Sequence record: ON528720
From: Shigella phage ESh7
DNA: 39,724 nucleotides
Direction: 5' to 3' (one strand)
A model generated the notes under the pieces. That model ran no database searches. It worked only from the letters and a program-made list of their open reading frames with translations, and was not told where the DNA came from. Shown here one piece after another: positions 319 through 39,724 of this stretch (its first letter is position 1; the number at the start of each line of letters is the position of its first letter). Made by a program: the position numbers and the translations under genes.

Positions 319-320
319 AT

Positions 321-377
321 CCTCAAGGTCACTTAACATGAGTGGCCTTTGTGATTCGAACTGATTAACTTTCAACC
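321..377 (+). promoter_or_regulatory. RNase III-type processing hairpin (R1.3-like)
   Basis: CTCAAGGTC...GTGGCCTTTGTGATT motif shared with six other intergenic sites in this window; resembles T7 RNase III sites. Confidence 0.5.
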
Positions 378-378
378 A

Positions 379-1410
379 ATGAGGAACAACCGTATGAACA
401 TCTTCAAGACCAACCCATTCAAAGCTGTGTCATTCGTAGAGTCTGCCGTGAAGAAAGCCCTTGACAATGCTGGTTATTTGATTTGCGATATCAAATATGA
501 TGGCGTGCGTGGTAACATTGTGGTTGACAACGTGGCTGAGGCCGCATGGCTGTCCCGTGTGTCCAAGTTCATCCCGGCGCTGGAACATCTGAACGGTTTC
601 GATAAGCGCTGGCAACAACTGATGAATGATGACCGCTGCATTTTCCCGGACGGCTTCATGCTGGATGGTGAACTGATGGTCAAAGGCGTAGACTTCAACA
701 CAGGGTCTGGCCTACTGAGAACAAAGTGGCTCAAGAAGAACAACTGCATGTTTGACCGTGGTGGTGTTGAGCCGCTGAAAGGTTCAAAAGTAGCCTTTGA
801 GTTAGACCCTAAGCGCCTGAGTGTGCGCCTGTATGCGGTCATGCCGATTCACATTGCGGAGTCTGGTGAGGACTACGATGTGCAGAACCTGCTGATGCCG
901 TATCATGTGGAAGCCATGCGCTCTCTTCTGGTTGAATACTTCCCGGAAATCGAGTGGCTTATCGCTGAGACCTACGAGGTCTACGATATGGATTCACTGA
1001 GTGAACTGTACGAGGCCAAGCGTGCAGAAGGCCACGAGGGTCTCATTGTGAAAGACCCACAAGGCATCTACAAGCGAGGCAAGAAGTCTGGCTGGTGGAA
1101 ATGCAAGCCTAATGACGAAGCCGATGGTATTATTCAGGGTGTCAATTGGGGTACGCCGGGTCTTGCAAACGAAGGTAAAGTTATCGGGTTCTCTGTGCTT
1201 CTTGAGACTGGTCGTCTGGTTGACGCCAACAACATCTCTCGCGCATTGATGGATGAGTTTACCGCGAATGTTAAAGAACATGGCGAGGATTACTACAACG
1301 GGTGGGCCTGCCAGATTGGATATATGGAGGAAACACCCGATGGCTCATTGCGACACCCCTCATTCACCTGCTTCCGAGGAACTGAGGACAATCCACAAGA
1401 GAAAGTATAA
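379..1410 (+). CDS. 1.3: ATP-dependent DNA ligase
   Basis: 343 aa; adenylation motif KYDGVRG (lysine in ICDIKYDGVRG); position after gene 1.2 as in T7/T3. Confidence 0.9.
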   Translation: MRNNRMNIFKTNPFKAVSFVESAVKKALDNAGYLICDIKYDGVRGNIVVDNVAEAAWLSRVSKFIPALEHLNGFDKRWQQLMNDDRCIFPDGFMLDGELMVKGVDFNTGSGLLRTKWLKKNNCMFDRGGVEPLKGSKVAFELDPKRLSVRLYAVMPIHIAESGEDYDVQNLLMPYHVEAMRSLLVEYFPEIEWLIAETYEVYDMDSLSELYEAKRAEGHEGLIVKDPQGIYKRGKKSGWWKCKPNDEADGIIQGVNWGTPGLANEGKVIGFSVLLETGRLVDANNISRALMDEFTANVKEHGEDYYNGWACQIGYMEETPDGSLRHPSFTCFRGTEDNPQEKV

Positions 1411-3003: not shown

Positions 3004-3702
3004 ATGGCTGGTTTCAAGAAGAAAATTTACACCTCTGGTCTTGGCACTGCTGAGCCTTATGCTTATCTGAGTAAGCCGGATTATGGCAACGAAGAGCGTG
3101 GCTTCGGCAACCCACGTGGTGTCTATAAGGTAGACCTGACTCTTTCCAATAAAGACCCGCGCTGTCAGGCGATGGTCGATGAAATCGTGAAGTGTCACGA
3201 AGAGGCTTATGCTGCTGCCGTGGAAGAGTTCGAAGCTAACCCGCCGCAGGTACAGCGTGGTAAGAAACCACTGAAACCTTACGAGGGCGACATGCCGTTC
3301 TTCGATAACGGTGACGGTACGACTACCTTCAAGTTCAAATGCTATGCGTCTTTCCAAGACAAGAAGACCAAAGAGACAAAACACATCAATCTGGTCGTGG
3401 TCGATAGCAAAGGTAAGAAGATTCAGGAAGTGCCAATTATCGGTGGCGGCTCCAAGCTGAAAGTGAAATACTCTCTGGTGCCTTACAAGTGGAACACCGC
3501 TGTGGGCGCAAGCGTCAAGCTGCAACTGGAATCCGTGATGCTGGTCGAACTGGCTACCTTCGGTGGTGGTAGTGAAGATGAGTGGGCCGATGAAGTCGAA
3601 GATGGTGGTTACACTGCGAGTGAATCCCGTCAGTCCCGCGATGAGCAGGAGTGGCAGGAAGACGAGCACGAAGAAACCCCGGATGATGACGAGGATTTTT
3701 AA
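3004..3702 (+). CDS. 2.5: single-stranded DNA-binding protein
   Basis: 232 aa, acidic C-terminal tail ending DDDEDF as in T7 gp2.5; synteny. Confidence 0.9.
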   Translation: MAGFKKKIYTSGLGTAEPYAYLSKPDYGNEERGFGNPRGVYKVDLTLSNKDPRCQAMVDEIVKCHEEAYAAAVEEFEANPPQVQRGKKPLKPYEGDMPFFDNGDGTTTFKFKCYASFQDKKTKETKHINLVVVDSKGKKIQEVPIIGGGSKLKVKYSLVPYKWNTAVGASVKLQLESVMLVELATFGGGSEDEWADEVEDGGYTASESRQSRDEQEWQEDEHEETPDDDEDF

Positions 3703-3705
3703 ACC

Positions 3706-4176
3706 ATGAACCTGCGGGAGAAACTGGAGGCTTACTCTAAGGTGTCTCCCTCTGGTTGCTGGGAGTGGCGGCGAGCCACTGCTGGGAATGGTTATTGTTT
3801 AATATCCATAGGTCGCCAGCGTCAAGCATATGCGCACAGGGTATCATACTTCGTCTTCAATGAGCCAATTTCCGAAGGTCTTGTCATTAGACATAAGTGT
3901 GATAACCCTTGCTGTGTTAACCCTGAGCACCTAGAAGTTGGGACTCAGGCAGACAACATGCGGGACTGTAAGAAGCGTGGTCGTTTATCCGCGCCACCAG
4001 TAGCGAGAGGTGTACACAATCACAAGACTAAGCTGACCGATGAACAGGTAGCCTACATTGTGAACTCCACCAAGAGTAGCCGCGAGTTAGCCAACGAGTT
4101 TGGAGTATCGCCGCAGGCTATAAACTGGAGGAAGAGACAATGGCAGGCTACGTCGCAAAAGGAATCCGAAAAGTAG
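3706..4176 (+). CDS. HNH endonuclease with C-terminal helix-turn-helix region (gene 2.8 position)
   Basis: GCWEW...NGYC...HRVSY...HKCDNPCCVNPEHLEVGTQADN HNH motif; C-terminal TDEQVAYIVNSTKSSRELANEFGVSPQAINWRKRQW resembles HTH. Confidence 0.75.
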   Translation: MNLREKLEAYSKVSPSGCWEWRRATAGNGYCLISIGRQRQAYAHRVSYFVFNEPISEGLVIRHKCDNPCCVNPEHLEVGTQADNMRDCKKRGRLSAPPVARGVHNHKTKLTDEQVAYIVNSTKSSRELANEFGVSPQAINWRKRQWQATSQKESEK

Positions 4177-9712: not shown

Positions 9713-9730
9713 GGAGGACTTATTGGAGGC

Positions 9731-10054
9731 GTGGCTACACTAAGGTTCCACAAGATGCCGACCGGGTGTGTAGTCTGCGTTTCACATAAGCGCAATCACG
9801 ATGGCTACTTCCGGTACAGTATAGTGTCGTCCAGAAAGGGCGAGAAGAAATGCTTTATGTTTCACCGCTGGGTTTGGGAACGACACCGTGGGCCTATACC
9901 AGAAGGGTATGAGATAGACCACTTGTGTCTGAACCGTGGGTGCTGCAACGTAGAACACCTGCAGTGCATCCCGAAGCGTGAGCACATAATCAAAACCAAC
10001 AAAGAGCACAAGCTCGTAAAGGAGAAACATTATGGCAATGACCAAACACTTTAA
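9731..10054 (+). CDS. 5.3: HNH endonuclease (gene 5.3 position)
   Basis: HRWVWERHRGPIPEGYEIDHLCLNRGCCNVEHLQCIPKREH; start codon uncertain (GTG 9731 or ATG 9755). Confidence 0.7.
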   Translation: MATLRFHKMPTGCVVCVSHKRNHDGYFRYSIVSSRKGEKKCFMFHRWVWERHRGPIPEGYEIDHLCLNRGCCNVEHLQCIPKREHIIKTNKEHKLVKEKHYGNDQTL

Positions 10055-19991: not shown

Positions 19992-20408
19992 ATGTACATT
20001 ACAAAGTGTTTACAAAACCACGCTGACAACTTTCAGCCGTCCATAGAGGACATTCTGGAAGCTGAGGCACTAGGTGTTGAACCAAAGGTAATTCCTGATG
20101 AGAACACTGTGGCGATGCTGAGCGATAGCGCTGTGTTGGCAATCGGTGGCAATCAGGGAGACCGAGTGTGGTTCCTTACCTCTAAGTACGTCCCACTGTT
20201 TACCTTGAAGGAGCGCTTAGAGTTTCGTAGACTTATAATTGAATATCGTAATAAGATGCTAAGCCAGTATGAGTCAATTTGGAACTTCGTTTGGGTTGGC
20301 AATAAGTCACACATTCGTTTCCTAAAGACCATAGGCGCTGTGTTCCACAATGAATACACAGGAGGTGGTCAATTTCAACTATTCACAATCACAAGGAGGA
20401 ACCCTTGA
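19992..20408 (+). CDS. 13: internal virion / assembly protein gene 13 homolog
   Basis: 138 aa, same as T7 gp13; synteny. Confidence 0.8.
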   Translation: MYITKCLQNHADNFQPSIEDILEAEALGVEPKVIPDENTVAMLSDSAVLAIGGNQGDRVWFLTSKYVPLFTLKERLEFRRLIIEYRNKMLSQYESIWNFVWVGNKSHIRFLKTIGAVFHNEYTGGGQFQLFTITRRNP

Positions 20409-20791
20409 AGAAGTGCAGCAAGTGCTCCGAATTGAAGGAGCTAACAGAGTTCTATAAGGACAAGACCAAACCTGACGGCCTGCGGTGTTCCTGCAAGGCT
20501 TGCCAAGGTGAGACCAAGAAGTCCTATCGAGTCATCAAGGATAGAAACCTTCGGCGTCTATATGGAATCGGTCTGAATGAGTATGAAGAAATGCTCGCTA
20601 AGCAGAATGGCGTCTGTGCAATCTGCGGTATTACCGAGAGAGTTGAGGGACGGGCGTTAGCGGTTGACCATTGCCACGCCACTGGCGCTGTTCGTGGTCT
20701 CCTTTGCTCTGCCTGTAACATCGCTCTTGGGAAATTCGAGGACGACACCGAGCGTCTTCGGAAGGCAATCACTTACCTAAGAGGAGAATAA
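20405..20791 (+). CDS. endonuclease VII-like / HNH-type nuclease with N-terminal zinc ribbon
   Basis: TTG start 6 nt after AAGGAGGA; CSKC...CSCKAC then CAICG...LAVDHCHATGAVRGLLCSACNIALGKF, the DHxH...RGLLCxxCN signature of the endonuclease VII fold. Confidence 0.7.
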   Translation: MKKCSKCSELKELTEFYKDKTKPDGLRCSCKACQGETKKSYRVIKDRNLRRLYGIGLNEYEEMLAKQNGVCAICGITERVEGRALAVDHCHATGAVRGLLCSACNIALGKFEDDTERLRKAITYLRGE

Positions 20792-27685: not shown

Positions 27686-29635
27686 ATGGCTACAAATATT
27701 AAGACCGTGATGACTTACCCGCTGGATGGTTCAACTACGGACTTTAATATTCCGTTCGAGTATCTGGCTCGTAAGTTCGTCCGAGTGACCCTTATCGGTG
27801 TTGACCGAAAGGAACTCATCTTGAATAAAGACTATCGTTTTGCTACTAAGACCACAATCTCCACAACGAGAGCATTGGGGCCAGCGGACGGTTATAACAT
27901 GATTGAAATCCGTCGATTCACCTCCGCTACAGATAGGCTGGTTGACTTCACCGATGGTTCAATCCTTCGGGCATATGATTTGAACATATCTCAGGTTCAG
28001 ACCCTTCACGTTGCTGAGGAAGCCCGCGACCTTACCGCAGATACAATTGGCGTCAACAATGGTGGGAACTTGGATGCTCGTGGTCGTCGTATCGTGAACG
28101 TTGCGGATGCACAAGATGTAGGTGACGCAATCAACCTAGGTCAAATCCAACGATGGAACGACTCTGCGTTGAACTCTGCTAATCGAGCGAAACAGGAAGC
28201 TGACCGTGCAACTGCGCGTGCAAACGATGCGAACAACTCTGCGAACGCCTCAGCGTCCTCCGCTAGTGCCTCTTCTGTCTCCGCCGAATTAGCAAAACAG
28301 TGGGCCGTTAAGGAAACCGCTGTGGAGCCTAATCTCGAGTCATCACGAACCTACGCGCTTCACTCCATGTCATACCGGAATGAGGCTAAAGGCTCTGCCG
28401 ACCGTGCCGCTGTTTCAGAGACCAACGCTAAGGCCTCCGAAGGGAGCGCTACTAACTCGGCTGCTGCCGCTAAGGTCTCAGAGACCAACGCTAAGGCCTC
28501 CGAGGAGAGAGCAATCACTGAGGCGAGTAAGCTTGGAAGCATGAATGGGTTTGCTGGTGCAATCGACAGGGTTGAAGGTGTAAACGTGTGGTTCAAAGGG
28601 ACACTCGTGACTACCGAGAACATCACTGGAGGTTGGCTTATTTCCACAGGCCACGCTAATATTGGTAAAGGGCTTGCGGTTCAGGAGAATGGTACTTTCG
28701 GTATCGACTTAACAGTCCAGCGCGACATTTATGGAAATCGTAACATGACAGTCGCTGGTAACTCTTGGTTGCAGGGAGGCATTGTCCAGTCGGCAGCCTC
28801 CACCGTGTATAACCAGCTATATCGCCTTCACCTGAGCAGTACACCAATGCATGTAGGGAACCGTCAGGGTGTCCACATTGGATGGAACGAGTCTAACGGT
28901 AAAGGTGAAGCTGTCTTTTTGAATAACCAAGGCCGTGGTGATGGTGGGTTCGTGTTCCGTACAGTTAACGTCGCCAACTCAGTTGAGAAGGGTCGTGTCG
29001 AGTTTACTCAGGACGGTAACATCTATGCGAATCACCTACAGGTTCGTTCCGGTGCCAGAATTGATGGGAACAACAACATCGTAGGTCAGTACCTCCACGC
29101 AGGAATGGGCAACGCGATACTAAACCCGGATGGGAACCTTAGCGGCGGTGTGTGGAACAGCGTTGGTGGACACCTTTGGGGAATGCTCAACGACAACTAC
29201 AGGTTCGCCAAACCTCCTGCTGGGGTTCGCCTGTACACAGGCCGTGGCTCGGACTACATTGAGGGTAACGTTGATGGTAAGGCCGTTGGGTTCCGATGGT
29301 TCCTGTCAGACAGAAGGCTTAAAGAGAACATCAAGGTTGTTCGCTCTGCCGATGATATGCTCAATATTATCCGCTCGTATATTCCGGTTTCGTATAAATA
29401 TAAGGACTCTGAGTACGTTGACAACCGTGGGAATACTGTGACTGTCGCTGGTAAGAACTCTCGTGCTGGTTTCATTACTCAGGACTTGATTCGAATCTGG
29501 CCGGAGGCGGTTGATATAATGAGCGACGGTATGCAGTCTCCAGACCCGAACCAGATCATTGGCGGATTGATGCTACTTGTTAAGAACCTAGATGCTCGCG
29601 TTCAGGAGCTTGAATCTAAACTTATGACAGACTAA
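27686..29635 (+). CDS. 17: tail fibre protein with C-terminal intramolecular chaperone (peptidase S74-like) domain
   Basis: 649 aa from ATG 27686 (RBS AAAGGAGGT); N-terminus MATNIKTVMTYPLDGSTTDFNIPFEYLARKFV... like T7 gp17; C-terminus SDRRLKENI...VSYKYK...GFITQDL...PEAV...LVKNLDARVQELESKL. Confidence 0.9.
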   Translation: MATNIKTVMTYPLDGSTTDFNIPFEYLARKFVRVTLIGVDRKELILNKDYRFATKTTISTTRALGPADGYNMIEIRRFTSATDRLVDFTDGSILRAYDLNISQVQTLHVAEEARDLTADTIGVNNGGNLDARGRRIVNVADAQDVGDAINLGQIQRWNDSALNSANRAKQEADRATARANDANNSANASASSASASSVSAELAKQWAVKETAVEPNLESSRTYALHSMSYRNEAKGSADRAAVSETNAKASEGSATNSAAAAKVSETNAKASEERAITEASKLGSMNGFAGAIDRVEGVNVWFKGTLVTTENITGGWLISTGHANIGKGLAVQENGTFGIDLTVQRDIYGNRNMTVAGNSWLQGGIVQSAASTVYNQLYRLHLSSTPMHVGNRQGVHIGWNESNGKGEAVFLNNQGRGDGGFVFRTVNVANSVEKGRVEFTQDGNIYANHLQVRSGARIDGNNNIVGQYLHAGMGNAILNPDGNLSGGVWNSVGGHLWGMLNDNYRFAKPPAGVRLYTGRGSDYIEGNVDGKAVGFRWFLSDRRLKENIKVVRSADDMLNIIRSYIPVSYKYKDSEYVDNRGNTVTVAGKNSRAGFITQDLIRIWPEAVDIMSDGMQSPDPNQIIGGLMLLVKNLDARVQELESKLMTD

Positions 29636-32869: not shown

Positions 32870-33350
32870 GAGTCAACCCTAAAGGTTATACCTAAAGATG
32901 CCCTGTAGTTCGTAATGGTCTTACAGGGTCTTTAAGTGTCTCCTAGCTATCACTTCGGGATGCGCCTATGGTATCACCTATGGTGTGGCCCTACCTAAAG
33001 TGGTTGCCTAAAGAGGCCCTTTAAGAATTTACCACAAAAATCTGAATGGGTATCTCACAGTTCAAGAACCCAAAGTACCCCCCATAGCCCTCCTAAAGCC
33101 ACCTAAAGCCAGCCCTACCCCTAGGGTTTAACCTTCGGTTAACCTTGGGTATCTCCTCAAGTGGTCTATAGGATAGCCTAAAGTGTTGCCTAAAGTCAAT
33201 ACCTAAAGTGGTGGATGGCTTAAGGAGGACTTAAAGAGTGTCCTAGTGTACCAGTTCGATAGTACATCTCTATGTGTCCCTATCTGTTAGCCTCCTAAAG
33301 TAAACCTAAAGCCACTACCTAAAGACCAGACCTAAAGCTATCACCTAAAG
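32870..33350 (+). repeat. array of about 14 CCTAAAG heptamer repeats with irregular spacing (genome-end short repeats)
   Basis: CCTAAAG counted at about 32877, 32891, 32992, 33006, 33093, 33102, 33177, 33188, 33201, 33292, 33303, 33316, 33328, 33341; T7 ends carry the same ACCTAAAG arrays. Confidence 0.7.
33053..33281 (+). repeat. putative terminal repeat (single copy at concatemer-type junction)
   Basis: Begins TCTCACAG like the T7 left end and ends ...GTGTCCCT like the end of the T7 terminal repeat; about 229 bp; boundaries inferred by analogy. Confidence 0.4.
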
Positions 33351-33440
33351 CGGCGCTATCTTAAAGACAACCAGACCGATAAGACCCATTGTTAACCCGT
33401 AGTGATGCCCTGTGGTTCTCTATGGTGTCTATCGTCAATT

Positions 33441-35257: not shown

Positions 35258-36394
35258 ATGACTTTCACCGAAGCACAAGCCGCACTCGAAGCTATCCGCA
35301 ACCTACCGATTGAGCTCCTGAACGAACGCCAGTCCATGCTGGTGGCTCTTGCGGCTGCTATCGTGAACGATGAGACTCAAGACGGCGAACTGACGCAGGC
35401 CAATGTCAATTGGGGTCTGGAGTATATGGGCTACTGGCAGACACTGGCGGAGCGTATGCGTGATGTTGGATTTGTACGCTTGGGTAACGGTCACTTTAGC
35501 GCAGCATATGAGCACGCATTGTTACCGGGCAAGGTTATCAAGGTAGGCTTTAAGAAAGAGGATTCAGGCGCTGCCTATGCCGCATTCTGCCGTATGAATC
35601 AGGGTCGTGAGGGTATCCCTACGGTGTACGACATTCAGCGTCATACAGGCTGCTACACGGTGGTCTTGGACTATCTGACACCGCTTAACGATGGGTGCTA
35701 CGGTGAAAGTGATAAGATTCGCCACCACTTTCAGGCCGCACGGGAAATCATTGAGGAGGGTTGCTTCGACACCGCCGAAGAGTACCCGATAAGCGAGGGC
35801 TTTATTGAGACCTGCAAGGATATCCGCAAGTTCTTCTTAGGCATCGCATCGTTCGATTGTCACAGCGGTAACATGATGAAAGACCAAATGGGACGCTTGA
35901 TTATCACAGACCCGGTGTCATTCAGCGCAGCCAACAAGTTAAAGCCGGGTGAGTTCCACTGTGACCCTGATGAGCTCATCGCTGAGATTGAGGCGCTGAG
36001 GGCGCAGGAAGCGATTGACCGCTGTAAGGCACGCAAGGCACGCCGTGACCCTAAAGGAACCTTTCAGGTAGCGCGTAAAGCACGCATCAAGTGGCGCAGA
36101 AAGGCCTCTAAGCGTAGGAAGCGCAACGCTAAGGTACGCGCTAAGATGCGCAACGCTAAGGTACGCGCTAAGATGCGCATGGATGCCAACGAGCAGCGCA
36201 GGGCCGAGCCTAGGGCGCGTATGATGTGGGGTGATACGCACTGGCGCAACGTTTGGATGCAGAATATGATTGTTGACTTCGAACGGCTCGAACTGTTAGC
36301 AGCCGCACAGATGGCACAGATAGACCACAAGGCTATCGCATGGAACTCTCCGCTGTGTGTCGATAAGTACCTTGACAGGAGACTGCAAGGCTGA
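35258..36394 (+). CDS. 0.7: serine/threonine protein kinase / host transcription shut-off protein
   Basis: 378 aa; GNGHFSAAYEHALLPGKVIKVGFKKEDSGAAYAAFCRM...GCYTVVLD...CKDIRKFFLGIASFDCHSGNMM tracks T7 gp0.7 closely as I recall it. Confidence 0.85.
   Translation: MTFTEAQAALEAIRNLPIELLNERQSMLVALAAAIVNDETQDGELTQANVNWGLEYMGYWQTLAERMRDVGFVRLGNGHFSAAYEHALLPGKVIKVGFKKEDSGAAYAAFCRMNQGREGIPTVYDIQRHTGCYTVVLDYLTPLNDGCYGESDKIRHHFQAAREIIEEGCFDTAEEYPISEGFIETCKDIRKFFLGIASFDCHSGNMMKDQMGRLIITDPVSFSAANKLKPGEFHCDPDELIAEIEALRAQEAIDRCKARKARRDPKGTFQVARKARIKWRRKASKRRKRNAKVRAKMRNAKVRAKMRMDANEQRRAEPRARMMWGDTHWRNVWMQNMIVDFERLELLAAAQMAQIDHKAIAWNSPLCVDKYLDRRLQG
36121..36174 (+). repeat. perfect in-frame 27-bp tandem duplication inside gene 0.7
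   Basis: GCGCAACGCTAAGGTACGCGCTAAGAT x2 (36121-36147, 36148-36174), encoding RNAKVRAKM twice. Confidence 0.9.
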
Positions 36395-36464
36395 TAAAGT
36401 CTTTTCTTACAGGTCATCATGAGGTGACCTGAATAGGAACGATTTATTCACAACGAGGTAAGCA

Positions 36465-39119
36465 ATGAACATCATCGAAACTATCGAAAAGAATGACTTC
36501 TCCGAAATCGAACTGGCTGCTATCCCGTTCAACACACTGGCAGACCACTACGGCAGCGCATTGGCTCGTGAACAACTGGCTTTAGAGCACGAGTCTTATG
36601 AGCTAGGCGAGCGCCGCTTCCTCAAGATGCTTGAGCGTCAAGCGAAAGCTGGTGAGATTGCAGACAACGCAGCCGCTAAGCCGTTACTCGCTACGCTTCT
36701 CCCTAAGTTAACCGCACGCATCGTTGAGTGGCTCGAAGAGTACGCCTCTAAGAAAGGCCGCAAGCCTGTAGCCTATGCACCACTCCAATCACTCAAGCCG
36801 GAGGCGTCCGCGTTTATCACGCTCAAGGTCATCCTTGCGTCACTGACCAGCACGAACATGACAACCATTCAGGCCGCTGCTGGTATGCTAGGGAAGGCCA
36901 TTGAGGATGAGGCACGTTTCGGGCGCATCCGTGACCTCGAAGCGAAGCACTTCAAGAAGCACGTTGAGGAACAGCTTAACAAGCGCCACGGGCAAGTCTA
37001 CAAGAAAGCCTTTATGCAGGTGGTCGAGGCCGATATGATTGGTCGAGGTCTGCTTGGTGGCGAGGCGTGGTCTAGCTGGGATAAAGAAACCACGATGCAC
37101 GTAGGGATTCGCCTGATTGAAATGCTGATTGAGTCCACGGGTCTGGTGGAATTACAGCGCCACAACGCAGGTAACGCAGGCTCTGACCATGAGGCACTAC
37201 AACTGGCCCAAGAGTACGTGGACGTCTTAGCGAAGCGTGCAGGCGCTCTGGCGGGTATCTCTCCGATGTTCCAACCGTGTGTCGTACCGCCGAAACCTTG
37301 GGTAGCAATCACAGGTGGCGGCTATTGGGCGAACGGTCGCAGACCTTTGGCGCTCATTCGCACTCACTCTAAGAAGGGACTGATGCGCTATGATGATGTT
37401 TACATGCCAGAAGTTTACAAGGCGGTCAACATCGCACAGAACACCGCATGGAAAATCAACAAGAAAGTCCTCTCGGTTGTCAACGAGATTGTGAACTGGA
37501 AGAACTGCCCGGTCGCAGACATTCCATCGCTGGAGCGCCAAGAGTTACCACCTAAGCCGGACGACATTGACACCAACGAGGCAGCACTCAGGGAGTGGAA
37601 GAAAGCCGCCGCTGGTGTCTACCGCTTGGACAAGGCACGAGTGTCTCGCCGTATCAGCTTAGAGTTCATGCTGGAGCAGGCCAACAAGTTTGCAAACAAG
37701 AAAGCAATCTGGTTCCCTTACAACATGGACTGGCGCGGTCGTGTGTACGCTGTGCCTATGTTCAACCCGCAAGGCAACGACATGACGAAAGGTCTGCTGA
37801 CCCTCGCTAAAGGAAAGCCAATCGGTGAGGAAGGTTTCTACTGGCTGAAAATCCACGGCGCGAACTGTGCGGGTGTCGATAAGGTTCCTTTCCCTGAGCG
37901 CATCGCGTTCATTGAGAAGCACGTAGACGACATTCTGGCTTGCGCTAAAGACCCAATCAATAACACTTGGTGGGCCGAGCAGGATTCACCTTTCTGTTTC
38001 CTAGCGTTTTGCTTCGAGTATGCAGGCGTTGCGCACCACGGTCTGAGCTACAATTGCTCTCTGCCGCTGGCGTTCGACGGGTCTTGCTCTGGTATCCAGC
38101 ACTTCTCCGCTATGCTCCGCGATGAGGTAGGCGGTCGTGCGGTTAACCTGCTGCCAAGCGAAACCGTGCAGGACATTTACGGCATCGTTGCACAGAAAGT
38201 AAACGAGATTCTCAAACAGGATGCAATCAACGGCACACCTAACGAGATGATTACCGTGACCGACAATGACACCGGGGAAATCTCAGAGAAGCTCAAGCTG
38301 GGAACCTCAACGCTGGCGCAACAGTGGCTGGCATATGGTGTAACCCGTAGCGTAACTAAACGTTCGGTCATGACGCTGGCTTACGGTTCCAAGGAGTTCG
38401 GCTTTCGTCAACAGGTACTGGACGACACCATTCAGCCTGCGATTGACAGCGGTAAGGGCTTGATGTTCACCCAACCTAACCAAGCGGCTGGCTACATGGC
38501 TAAGCTGATTTGGGACGCGGTGAGCGTGACCGTAGTCGCAGCGGTCGAGGCGATGAACTGGCTCAAGTCTGCCGCTAAGCTGCTGGCTGCTGAGGTCAAG
38601 GACAAGAAGACCAAGGAGATTCTGCGTCACCGTTGCGCGGTTCACTGGACTACGCCGGACGGCTTCCCGGTCTGGCAGGAATACCGCAAGCCACTCCAGA
38701 AGCGTCTCGATATGATTTTCTTAGGGCAATTCCGTCTGCAACCGACGATTAATACCCTCAAGGATTCAGGCATTGACGCACACAAGCAGGAGTCTGGCAT
38801 CGCTCCTAACTTTGTTCACTCACAGGACGGTAGCCACCTCCGCATGACAGTAGTTTATGCTCACGAGAAGTATGGCATTGAGTCCTTTGCGCTCATCCAT
38901 GACAGCTTCGGGACTATCCCGGCAGACGCTGGTAAGCTGTTCAAAGCTGTACGTGAGACGATGGTTATCACCTACGAGAACAACGATGTGCTGGCAGACT
39001 TCTATGACCAGTTTGCAGACCAGCTACACGAGACCCAACTGGACAAGATGCCTCCGCTTCCGAAGAAAGGGAACCTGAACCTCCAAGACATTCTCAAGTC
39101 TGACTTTGCCTTTGCATAA
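36465..39119 (+). CDS. 1: single-subunit DNA-directed RNA polymerase
   Basis: 884 aa (T3 RNAP length as I recall it); motifs PMFQPCVVPPKPW, DGSCSGIQHFSAMLRDE, HDSFGT; C-terminal FAFA. Confidence 0.97.
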   Translation: MNIIETIEKNDFSEIELAAIPFNTLADHYGSALAREQLALEHESYELGERRFLKMLERQAKAGEIADNAAAKPLLATLLPKLTARIVEWLEEYASKKGRKPVAYAPLQSLKPEASAFITLKVILASLTSTNMTTIQAAAGMLGKAIEDEARFGRIRDLEAKHFKKHVEEQLNKRHGQVYKKAFMQVVEADMIGRGLLGGEAWSSWDKETTMHVGIRLIEMLIESTGLVELQRHNAGNAGSDHEALQLAQEYVDVLAKRAGALAGISPMFQPCVVPPKPWVAITGGGYWANGRRPLALIRTHSKKGLMRYDDVYMPEVYKAVNIAQNTAWKINKKVLSVVNEIVNWKNCPVADIPSLERQELPPKPDDIDTNEAALREWKKAAAGVYRLDKARVSRRISLEFMLEQANKFANKKAIWFPYNMDWRGRVYAVPMFNPQGNDMTKGLLTLAKGKPIGEEGFYWLKIHGANCAGVDKVPFPERIAFIEKHVDDILACAKDPINNTWWAEQDSPFCFLAFCFEYAGVAHHGLSYNCSLPLAFDGSCSGIQHFSAMLRDEVGGRAVNLLPSETVQDIYGIVAQKVNEILKQDAINGTPNEMITVTDNDTGEISEKLKLGTSTLAQQWLAYGVTRSVTKRSVMTLAYGSKEFGFRQQVLDDTIQPAIDSGKGLMFTQPNQAAGYMAKLIWDAVSVTVVAAVEAMNWLKSAAKLLAAEVKDKKTKEILRHRCAVHWTTPDGFPVWQEYRKPLQKRLDMIFLGQFRLQPTINTLKDSGIDAHKQESGIAPNFVHSQDGSHLRMTVVYAHEKYGIESFALIHDSFGTIPADAGKLFKAVRETMVITYENNDVLADFYDQFADQLHETQLDKMPPLPKKGNLNLQDILKSDFAFA

Positions 39120-39570: not shown

Positions 39571-39724
39571 ATGCGTACCAACTTTGAGAAATTTACCAAG
39601 CGCGATTCAGTGGTCAACGAGCATGGCGAACAGTGGCAAGAGCGCCGTTACCGCATGAAGAAACGCCACAAGCAACAGCGCCGTGACCGCATGAAGAAAC
39701 GCCACAAGCAACAGCGCGGTAACT
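39571..39724 (+). CDS. 1.1: gene 1.1 homolog, small basic protein, 3' end cut by window edge
   Basis: MRTNFEKFTKRD... parallels T7 gp1.1 MRNFEKMTKRSNRN...; reading frame still open at last base. Confidence 0.55.
   Translation, partial: MRTNFEKFTKRDSVVNEHGEQWQERRYRMKKRHKQQRRDRMKKRHKQQRGN
39646..39717 (+). repeat. in-frame 36-bp tandem duplication inside gene 1.1 (one mismatch)
   Basis: CGTTACCGCATGAAGAAACGCCACAAGCAACAGCGC / CGTGACCGCATGAAGAAACGCCACAAGCAACAGCGC, encoding R[Y/D]RMKKRHKQQR twice. Confidence 0.85.

What the first reader, a model, noticed from the sequence alone, without database searches (positions are those of the whole stretch)
36121..36174. Perfect in-frame 27-bp tandem duplication in the C-terminal domain of gene 0.7
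GCGCAACGCTAAGGTACGCGCTAAGAT occurs twice back to back with no mismatch, adding nine residues (RNAKVRAKM) to an already Arg/Lys-rich C-terminal segment of the kinase / shut-off protein. A perfect duplicate implies a recent event (replication slippage). The C-terminal part of T7 gp0.7 carries host transcription shut-off activity independent of the kinase, so a length change here could modulate that function, or it could be a laboratory or assembly artefact.
Basis: seen in the sequence. Interest (0 to 1): 0.4.

Follow-up and report, generated by a model that had tools for sequence, protein, structure and literature searches.

The report
Strain-specific 9-residue duplication in gp0.7
A T3-like phage carries a strain-specific, exact 27-base tandem duplication that lengthens the DNA-binding basic helix of its early kinase/host-shut-off protein by nine residues; it is a real but ordinary slippage-type length variant whose effect on function has not been tested.

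Summary
GCGCAACGCTAAGGTACGCGCTAAGAT occurs twice head to tail at 36121-36174, with no mismatch. It lies in frame in a 378-aa T3-type gene 0.7 (35258-36394, +) and adds RNAKVRAKM.

- **Not chance:** the exact match at period 27 runs 32 bases, against at most 14 in 400 shuffles.
- **Derived and private:** 89 phage records, ten aligned relatives and almost all full-length T3-like homologues (369 aa) have one copy. The junction is absent from three large contig collections.
- **Mechanism:** the ancestral sequence has a 5-bp direct repeat (GCGCA) exactly 27 bp apart, a classic slippage substrate, in a repeat-dense stretch of the genome.
- **Order of events:** both copies share a private Leu->Arg change, so that substitution most likely came first.
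- **Structure:** AlphaFold2 puts the insert mid-way in one long basic helix of the C-terminal shut-off domain. That helix is 57 residues with net charge +21, against 45-52 residues and +8 to +15 in 102 homologues. This domain binds DNA in T7.
- **Side finding:** gene 1.1 carries a second private in-frame tandem duplication of 36 bp.

Verdict: a genuine, ordinary slippage polymorphism in an indel-tolerant helix. The functional effect is inferred only, and an assembly artefact cannot be excluded without reads. Interest is low.

The parts
35258..36394 (+). Gene 0.7: T3-type Ser/Thr protein kinase / host shut-off protein, 378 aa plus stop
   Evidence: ORF listed. phrog_2828 matches with E 3.2e-172 over residues 1-378. 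The DNA is 87-93% identical to the annotated gene 0.7 / protein kinase of SH1, phiYeO3-12 and Klebsiella phage 6998. The N-terminal half matches protein-kinase folds (Foldseek probability 1.0). The T-D-P-V-S motif at residues 217-221 is invariant in 54 homologues.
36121..36147 (+). Copy 1 of the 27-bp unit (encodes RNAKVRAKM, residues 289-297, in codon register 36122-36148)
   Evidence: This is the stretch shown as a clean 27-column gap in all ten relatives in alignment A1.
36148..36174 (+). Copy 2 of the 27-bp unit, identical to copy 1 (residues 298-306)
36175..36179 (+). GCGCA, a 5-bp microhomology identical to the first 5 bases of the unit. In the single-copy ancestral sequence, GCGCA...GCGCA lie 27 bp apart and are the presumed slippage substrate
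   Evidence: TRF extends the array to 36179. Eight of the ten single-copy relatives keep GCGCA at the upstream position, with T3 and IMGVR_L002 reading GTGCA, and all ten keep it 27 bp downstream.
36137..36139 (+). Codon CGC (Arg294), repeated at 36164-36166 (Arg303). This is a private Leu->Arg change (CTC->CGC) present in both copies
   Evidence: All ten aligned relatives read GGTACTCGC. The 20 T3-like homologues have L, F or I here. No phage record holds the G variant in a 28-mer, and it is absent from three collections. The Leu version served as a positive control and was found.
36116..36118 (+). Codon AGG (Arg287) just upstream of the repeat, a private E/A/D->Arg change that also raises helix charge
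36059..36229 (+). Long basic alpha-helix of the C-terminal shut-off domain (residues 268-324, 57 aa, net charge +21), which contains the duplication at its middle
   Evidence: In the AF2 model m2fd9ca1c2965 the helix spans 268-324, with pLDDT 81-88. The single-copy control P0001 has the same helix at 268-315 (48 aa), with all later elements shifted by 9. Charge and length were compared with 102 homologues.
39643..39714 (+). Related side finding: a second private in-frame tandem duplication, 2 x 36 bp with 1 mismatch (Tyr vs Asp). It lies in gene 1.1, which starts at 39571 and continues across the window end into 1-23
   Evidence: TRF, sequence and alignment with phiYeO3-12 and Patroon. The listed top 40 of 175 phage records cover the 177-nt gene with 141 bp. 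The junction is absent from the phage collection and IMG/VR.

Best explanation
This is a genuine, lineage-specific, in-frame tandem duplication in gene 0.7 of a T3-like phage (genus Teetrevirus).

Origin: it most likely arose by slipped-strand mispairing or template switching during phage DNA replication, between two 5-bp direct repeats (GCGCA) that lie exactly 27 bp apart in the ancestral single-copy sequence. A private Leu->Arg substitution had most likely already occurred in that segment.

Protein-level effect: the duplication inserts nine residues (RNAKVRAKM, four of them basic) into the middle of the long basic alpha-helix of the C-terminal shut-off domain. The helix grows from 48 to 57 residues, which is about 2.5 turns or 13.5 A. 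Together with two private substitutions to Arg, its net charge rises from the family range of +8 to +15 up to +21.

Functional expectation: in T7 this helix binds DNA, shuts off host transcription, and steers the promiscuous kinase towards nucleic-acid-binding proteins. The reading frame, the kinase domain and all family-invariant residues are intact, so the protein is expected to work. The most likely consequence is neutral or slightly stronger non-specific DNA binding, in a segment that tolerates length change across the family.

Shown here: the sequence anatomy, uniqueness, the flanking microhomology, and placement in a predicted helix. Inferred: the slippage mechanism, the order of events, and any functional effect.
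For: - **Exactness and non-chance:**
- **Gene identity:**
- **Derived and private state:** none of the 89 matching phage records matches the whole 136-bp query at 99% or more, and the listed full-coverage matches span 101-109 bp of record. Ten aligned relatives, including T3, phiYeO3-12, SH1 and four IMG/VR contigs, show a clean 27-bp gap. Almost all full-length T3-like homologues among 5.8 billion proteins are 369 aa and none is 378. No homologue has a tandem repeat or the VRAKM motif. The junction 23-mer is absent from viral, metagenome and genome contigs. The exact protein is not on record.
- **Slippage substrate:** GCGCA occurs 27 bp apart in eight of the ten single-copy relatives, the upstream copy reading GTGCA in T3 and IMGVR_L002. 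The site is in the 98th-99th percentile of short-direct-repeat density in the reconstructed ancestral genome.
- **Substitution before duplication:** both copies carry the private T->G change.
- **Helix placement and the single-copy control:**
- **Length and charge outlier:**
- **Indel tolerance:** other gp0.7 subfamilies have 4-5-residue inserts at the same alignment columns and a 7-residue deletion nearby.
- **Function of the homologous T7 helix:** PMC13645617.
- **Such events occur in this lineage:** a second private duplication in gene 1.1 is also a multiple of 3 and flanked by a 5-bp repeat, and it has one mismatch between copies.
Against: - No reads are available, so an assembly or sequencing artefact cannot be excluded.
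- No sister lineage with the Leu->Arg change in a single copy was found. The order of events therefore rests on parsimony; gene conversion between the copies is the alternative.
- The 5-bp microhomology is short and by itself not rare.
- The gene 1.1 site is not repeat-dense (57th-83rd percentile), so mutational bias does not explain both events equally well.
- The functional statement rests on T7 data transferred to a T3-type protein that is about 50% identical, and on a predicted structure rather than a solved one.
- A nine-residue insert rotates the distal half of a helix by about 180 degrees. That could be disruptive if both halves contact the same partner.
Confidence: 0.78

Rival explanations
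1. Assembly or sequencing artefact: the phage has one copy, and the second was created during assembly, polishing or library preparation.
For: The allele is unique among all sequences searched. The copies are perfectly identical. The same genome holds a second private tandem duplication, which could point to a systematic pipeline problem. No reads were available.
Against: - The whole array is 54 bp and the exact self-match is 32 bp. Ordinary reads span it with unique flanks, and k-mers above 32 resolve it (inference).
- Assemblers tend to collapse tandem repeats rather than expand them (general knowledge).
- Both private duplications are multiples of 3 (27 and 36 bp), lie in coding sequence and leave the ORFs intact. 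That is expected of real mutations filtered by selection; for two artefacts the chance is about 1 in 9 (inference).
- The gene 1.1 copies differ at one base, which an artefactual copy would not explain.
- Both have a microhomology exactly one period apart in the ancestral sequence.
Confidence: 0.1
2. Adaptive change: the duplication was selected, together with the two substitutions to Arg and perhaps the gene 1.1 duplication, because a longer and more basic helix alters DNA binding. That would change host shut-off strength, kinase targeting, or recognition by a host defence that senses gp0.7 activity.
For: - The helix is an outlier in both length (57 vs 45-52 aa) and net charge (+21 vs at most +15) among 102 homologues.
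- Two of the three private substitutions in the helix also add positive charge.
- A second private duplication adds about six net positive charges to the small basic protein gp1.1.
- In T7 the shut-off domain directs phosphorylation to nucleic-acid-binding defence proteins (PMC13645617).
- gp0.7 triggers the ShosTA system, and T7 escapers are reported to carry gene 0.7 mutations (PMC11961720).
Against: - Private substitutions are spread over the whole protein (17 in all, 3 of them in the helix), with no clear enrichment there.
- The gene 0.7 site is a predicted mutational hot spot, and the segment is indel-tolerant in the family, so drift is sufficient.
- The allele is seen in one genome only, with no recurrence.
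- No functional data exist.
Confidence: 0.1
3. Ancestral two-copy state, or a copy-number-variable (contingency-type) repeat that relatives have lost or vary in.
For: The alignment columns at this site vary in length between gp0.7 subfamilies.
Against: Every sampled T3-like relative has exactly one copy and none has zero, two or three. The inserts in other subfamilies are not repeats of neighbouring sequence. Both copies share a private substitution, which fits a late duplication.
Confidence: 0.02

Closest known systems
Bacteriophage T3 / phiYeO3-12 / Citrobacter phage SH1 gene 0.7 protein kinase (369 aa; phrog_2828, Pfam PF27024)
   Same: The genomic position is the same, between the small early genes and gene 1 RNA polymerase. 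The profile match is full length and the DNA is 87-93% identical. The predicted kinase domain, disordered linker and helical C-terminal domain are the same.
   Different: The window protein is nine residues longer (378 aa) because of the tandem duplication. It also has private Arg substitutions at residues 287 and 294/303. Its helix is 57 rather than 48 residues, with net charge +21 rather than +12 to +15.
Bacteriophage T7 gp0.7 (T7K): kinase domain 1-242 plus C-terminal shut-off (SO) domain 243-359 with an extended basic DNA-binding helix (PMC13645617)
   Same: The two-domain architecture is the same, with a basic extended helix in the C-terminal domain. The DPV motif is conserved as TDPVS at residues 217-221.
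   Different: Identity is only about 50%. The T7-type proteins (358-359 aa) have a 7-residue deletion upstream of this site and a 4-5-residue insert at it. DNA binding, shut-off and toxicity have been measured for T7 only.
Microhomology-flanked tandem duplications and deletions by replication slippage (for example, T7 early-region deletions between short direct repeats, from my own knowledge; deletions between 6-8-bp repeats inside T7 gene 0.7 in PMC11961720)
   Same: Two head-to-tail copies, relatives with a single copy, and a short direct repeat exactly one period apart in the ancestral sequence.
   Different: This is a gain rather than a loss. The microhomology is only 5 bp. The event itself was not observed, so the mechanism is inferred from the product.

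Membership tests
T7/T3 gp0.7 protein kinase / host shut-off protein | Full-length sequence match to the family profile | tested here: met
   phrog_2828 matches with E 3.2e-172, residues 1-378 against profile positions 1-366 of 366. The 120 listed homologues carry PF27024. The local Pfam copy gave no hit, apparently because it lacks that newer model.
T7/T3 gp0.7 protein kinase / host shut-off protein | Position in the early region, immediately upstream of the phage RNA polymerase gene and on the same strand | tested here: met
   ORF 35258-36394 is followed by the 884-aa RNA polymerase ORF at 36465-39119. The order is the same in SH1, Klebsiella phage 6998, phiYeO3-12 and T3.
T7/T3 gp0.7 protein kinase / host shut-off protein | N-terminal protein-kinase-like fold with the DFG-like DPV motif | tested here: met
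   Foldseek hits to many Ser/Thr kinases, with probability 1.0 and E about 2e-4 to 1e-3, over roughly 160-190 aligned columns. T217 D218 P219 V220 S221 are invariant in 54 sequences. The DPV motif is described in PMC13645617.
T7/T3 gp0.7 protein kinase / host shut-off protein | C-terminal domain with an extended basic alpha-helix | tested here: met
   The AF2 model shows a helix at 268-324 with pLDDT 81-88. Its net charge is +21.
T7/T3 gp0.7 protein kinase / host shut-off protein | Kinase activity, DNA binding and host transcription shut-off | not testable with these tools
   These need biochemistry or infection experiments. They are known only for T7.
Slippage-type (microhomology-mediated) tandem duplication | Two adjacent head-to-tail copies where relatives have a single copy | tested here: met
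Slippage-type (microhomology-mediated) tandem duplication | Short direct repeat exactly one period apart in the ancestral sequence | tested here: met
   GCGCA occurs at both boundaries, 27 bp apart, in eight of ten single-copy relatives (the upstream copy is GTGCA in T3 and IMGVR_L002). The site is in the 98th-99th percentile of short-repeat density.
Slippage-type (microhomology-mediated) tandem duplication | Presence confirmed in the physical DNA (reads, PCR) | not testable with these tools
   No reads or samples were available.
Copy-number-variable / contingency repeat | Different copy numbers among close relatives | tested here: not met
   All sampled T3-like relatives have exactly one copy.
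Regulatory DNA/RNA element within the repeat (promoter, terminator, structured RNA) | Consensus signal or a fold more stable than shuffles | tested here: not met
   There is no promoter- or terminator-like site in 36100-36200. The only sites found are at 36372-36400, 36447-36475 and 35565-35577. The RNA fold z-score is 0.28.

The most novel reading that the evidence does not exclude
The two private in-frame duplications (gene 0.7 shut-off helix and gene 1.1) and the private substitutions to Arg together record directional selection in this lineage for longer, more positively charged nucleic-acid-binding segments in early proteins. One possible purpose is to strengthen or retarget gp0.7's DNA-tethered phosphorylation or shut-off on a new host. 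Another is to escape a defence system that senses gp0.7.
Probability: 0.1. Interest if true: 0.45.

Novelty: new member of a known kind. Interest (0 to 1): 0.17.

Why it matters
As it stands, this is a private length allele of a well-known phage protein, and mainly an annotation and quality-control point.

It has modest value as a natural experiment. The C-terminal helix of gp0.7 was recently shown in T7 to bind DNA and to focus a hyper-promiscuous kinase on nucleic-acid-binding host defence proteins. This allele is 9 residues longer and at least 6 charges more positive than any of 102 homologues. That makes it a ready-made variant for testing how helix length and charge tune DNA affinity, shut-off toxicity and substrate bias.

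The pair of duplications also shows how Arg/Lys-rich coding segments can grow by slippage in T7-group phages.

Tried and rejected
- **Local Pfam scan of the protein:** no significant hit. The family model PF27024 seen seems to be absent from that copy.
- **Sequence search of solved structures:** only chance-level hits, so no experimental gp0.7 structure could be used.
- **Exact-protein look-up in public assemblies:** nothing found, so the source genome and independent assemblies could not be located.
- **Search for a single-copy sister lineage with the Leu->Arg change:** negative in the phage collection and in three contig collections. The scan itself works, because the Leu allele was found as a positive control.
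- **Regulatory or RNA-structure role for the repeat:** rejected.
- **Minus-strand ORFs overlapping the repeat** (36064-36420, 118 aa; 35939-36241, 100 aa): dismissed without a homology test. They are antisense to a gene with an E 1e-172 family match, and T7-group genomes are transcribed from one strand (established knowledge).
- **Enrichment of private substitutions in the helix:** not seen, with 3 of 17 in the helix.
- **Mutational-bias explanation for the gene 1.1 site:** not supported by repeat density.
- **Literature search for T7 duplications between short direct repeats:** nothing directly usable, so that background is cited from my own knowledge only.
- **First paper search:** failed on a term-length rule and was repeated.

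Full report
**1. Observation**

The sequence at 36121-36174 consists of two identical, adjacent 27-mers, GCGCAACGCTAAGGTACGCGCTAAGAT. Tandem Repeats Finder reports period 27, 2.2 copies, 100% matches and no indels over 36121-36179.

The five extra bases, GCGCA, repeat the start of the unit. The exact self-match at period 27 is therefore 32 bases, and the duplication boundaries can be drawn in any of six registers. This is the longest perfect tandem in the window. In 400 shuffled versions of the window the longest comparable run was 14, so chance is excluded. The unit occurs nowhere else on either strand.

**2. What it lies in**

The repeat is inside the ORF 35258-36394 (+), 378 aa. This ORF matches the PHROG family 'serine-threonine kinase' over its full length (phrog_2828, E 3e-172). 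Its DNA is 87-93% identical to the annotated gene 0.7 / protein kinase genes of Citrobacter phage SH1, Klebsiella phage 6998, phiYeO3-12 and others. It is followed by the 884-aa phage RNA polymerase gene, as in T3 and its relatives.

The first 25 kb of the window is 95-96% identical to Teetrevirus genomes such as Patroon and phiYeO3-12. The window is a circular permutation of such a genome, with Patroon position 1 corresponding to window 33052.

The duplication is in frame. The protein reads ...KRRK RNAKVRAKM RNAKVRAKM RMDANE..., with the copies at residues 289-306. Nothing else is encoded there:
- No promoter- or terminator-like site falls in the repeat.
- The RNA does not fold better than shuffles (z = 0.28).
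- The antisense ORFs listed lie opposite a very strongly supported gene, in a phage group that is transcribed from one strand.

**3. Is it shared?**

No. The evidence is as follows.
- A 136-bp query across the repeat matched 89 phage records. The listed matches that cover most of the query span 101-109 bp of record, one copy fewer than the query, the rest align on one side of the repeat only, and no record reaches 99% identity.
- A base-level alignment with SH1, Klebsiella phage 6998, phiYeO3-12, T3, ESh8, VAC1 and four IMG/VR contigs shows a clean 27-column gap in all ten.
- In a search of 5.8 billion proteins, almost all full-length T3-like homologues are 369 aa (one is 366, one 367) and none is 378. 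None of the 120 best hits contains a tandem peptide repeat or the motif VRAKM.
- The junction 23-mer is absent from IMG/VR, the JGI metagenome contigs and the GTDB genome set.
- The exact protein is not on record in public assemblies.

The two-copy state is derived and private to this genome.

**4. How it arose**

In eight of the ten single-copy relatives the segment reads ...GAA GCGCA ACGCTAAGGTACTCGCTAAGAT GCGCA TGGA... T3 and IMGVR_L002 differ by one base in the upstream pentamer (GTGCA), and L001, L004 and L003 also differ just around it. A 5-bp direct repeat thus lies exactly one period (27 bp) apart. That is the product signature of slipped-strand mispairing or template switching.

I rebuilt the ancestral genome by removing one copy of each duplication. 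In it, this site falls in the 98th-99th percentile for density of 5-bp-or-longer direct repeats at 9-60-bp spacing. The cause is the reiterated CGC/AAG/GCT codons of the Arg/Lys/Ala-rich segment. Deletions between 6-8-bp repeats inside T7 gene 0.7 have been reported (PMC11961720). Deletions between short direct repeats in the T7 early region are classical knowledge (my own recollection, not checked here).

Both copies carry a T->G change (CTC Leu -> CGC Arg, at 36138 and 36165) that no relative has (positive control). By parsimony the substitution preceded the duplication.

On age, the firm statement is that the event is younger than the split from every sampled relative. Perfect identity of two 27-mers adds little. 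At the 7.3% divergence from the nearest gene, about two differences would be expected, so seeing none has a probability of about 0.14.

**5. What it does to the protein**

An AlphaFold2 model built with a 54-sequence alignment has mean pLDDT 84. It shows three parts:
- a kinase-like N-terminal domain, with Foldseek hits to many Ser/Thr kinases at probability 1.0;
- a disordered linker at residues 224-239;
- an all-helical C-terminal domain.

The duplicated residues 289-306 lie in the middle of one long helix, residues 268-324, with pLDDT 81-88. As a control I modelled a single-copy relative, P0001 (91% identical). It has the same helix at 268-315, and all later helices are simply shifted by nine. 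The duplication therefore lengthens the helix from 48 to 57 residues, which is 2.5 turns or about 13.5 A, without changing the predicted architecture.

Among 102 homologues the equivalent segment is 45-52 residues long with net charge +8 to +15. Here it is 57 residues with net charge +21. The increase comes from the insert (+4), the Leu->Arg change in both copies, and a private E/A/D->Arg change at residue 287. Other gp0.7 subfamilies have 4-5-residue inserts at the same alignment columns and a 7-residue deletion just upstream, so the helix tolerates length change in evolution.

**6. Likely function**

For T7, PMC13645617 reports the following about the C-terminal shut-off domain (residues 243-359):
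- It contains an extended basic alpha-helix and is stabilised by DNA.
- It biases the otherwise promiscuous kinase towards nucleic-acid-binding proteins, including defence systems.

By homology (inference), the duplicated segment here belongs to that DNA-binding helix. The frame, the kinase domain, the TDPVS motif and all family-invariant residues are intact, so the protein should be functional. The most probable outcome is a neutral or mildly stronger electrostatic DNA interaction. One caution is that nine residues rotate the distal part of the helix by about 180 degrees relative to the proximal part. That would matter if both halves contact one partner.

**7. Rivals**

*Assembly artefact.* This cannot be excluded without reads, but I think it unlikely, for these reasons:
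- The array is only 54 bp.
- Both private duplications in this genome are multiples of three and leave their ORFs intact.
- Both have microhomology exactly one period apart in the ancestral sequence.
- The gene 1.1 copies differ at one base.

*Adaptive change.* The length and charge outlier status, and the parallel expansion of basic gp1.1, hint at this. However, private substitutions are not concentrated in the helix (3 of 17), the gene 0.7 site is a mutational hot spot, and the allele is seen only once.

*Ancestral or contingency-repeat reading.* This is contradicted by the uniform single copy in relatives.

**8. Side finding**

Gene 1.1 starts at 39571 and runs across the window end into 1-23. 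It contains a 36-bp in-frame tandem duplication (39643-39714) with one mismatch. The gene is 177 bp here, against 141 bp in phiYeO3-12, Patroon and the listed top 40 of 175 phage hits. Its junction is absent from the phage collection and IMG/VR. In the ancestral sequence the unit is bounded by AGCGC repeats 36 bp apart. gp1.1 belongs to a family of unknown function (phrog_2490).

**9. Verdict**

What is there is a private, slippage-type, in-frame duplication that extends the basic DNA-binding helix of a T3-type gp0.7. It is a new allele of a known protein, produced by a known mutational mechanism. Interest is low (0.17). It would rise only if experiments showed that helix length or charge tunes shut-off or anti-defence activity.

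Noticed in passing
window 39571-39724 continuing into 1-23 (gene 1.1); repeat copies at 39643-39678 and 39679-39714: A second private in-frame tandem duplication: 36 bp (12 residues, ERRYRMKKRHKQ / QRRDRMKKRHKQ) with one mismatch, in the small basic early protein gp1.1. Relatives have a 141-bp gene and this genome has 177 bp. The ancestral sequence has AGCGC repeats 36 bp apart. The junction is absent from the phage collection and IMG/VR.
   Followed up: yes
window 33051/33052: The window is a circular permutation of a T3-like genome. Patroon's right end aligns up to window 33051 and its left end starts at 33052, so the physical genome ends (the terminal repeat) lie there, and gene 1.1 is split by the window boundary.
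   Followed up: partly
window 33092-33351: A cluster of short imperfect tandem arrays (periods 10-13, e.g. ACCTAAAGCCAC x 3.8) lies just inside the inferred genome left end. These are also the highest short-repeat-density bins of the genome. They are presumably the repeat arrays next to the terminal repeat that are known in T7-group phages.
   Followed up: no
window 28178-29632: The distal tail-fibre region does not align to the nearest overall relative (Patroon). It is closest to Yersinia phage vB_Yep_15 (91.7% over the full length) and Shigella phage ESh8 (94.8% over 78%). This mosaic exchange suggests a host range different from Patroon's Klebsiella host.
   Followed up: partly
window 320-390, 3701-4139, 9713-10019, 20400-20788: Further blocks have no alignment to Patroon. 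They are likely mosaic gain or loss of small genes such as homing (HNH) endonucleases, which Patroon carries at the corresponding places.
   Followed up: no
window 35258-36394 (gp0.7 residues 50, 146, 226, 327, 336, 338, 342): Besides the duplication, this gp0.7 has private substitutions at positions that are identical or nearly identical in the 20 T3-like cluster representatives: G50V, W146G, D226N, K327T, H336N, N338I and A342E. This indicates a fairly divergent gene 0.7 lineage.
   Followed up: partly
window 36372-36400: A sigma-70-like promoter (TTGACA, 17-nt spacer, TAAAGT, with a TG extension) straddles the end of gene 0.7. It is at the place where T3 has its annotated 'E. coli C promoter', just before the RNase III site R1 and gene 1.
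   Followed up: no
window 36026-36043: A perfect 9-bp tandem (AAGGCACGC x 2, encoding KARKAR) lies at the end of the shorter helix (residues 237-263) that precedes the long basic helix. The same residues are conserved in most relatives, so it is not private to this genome.
   Followed up: partly
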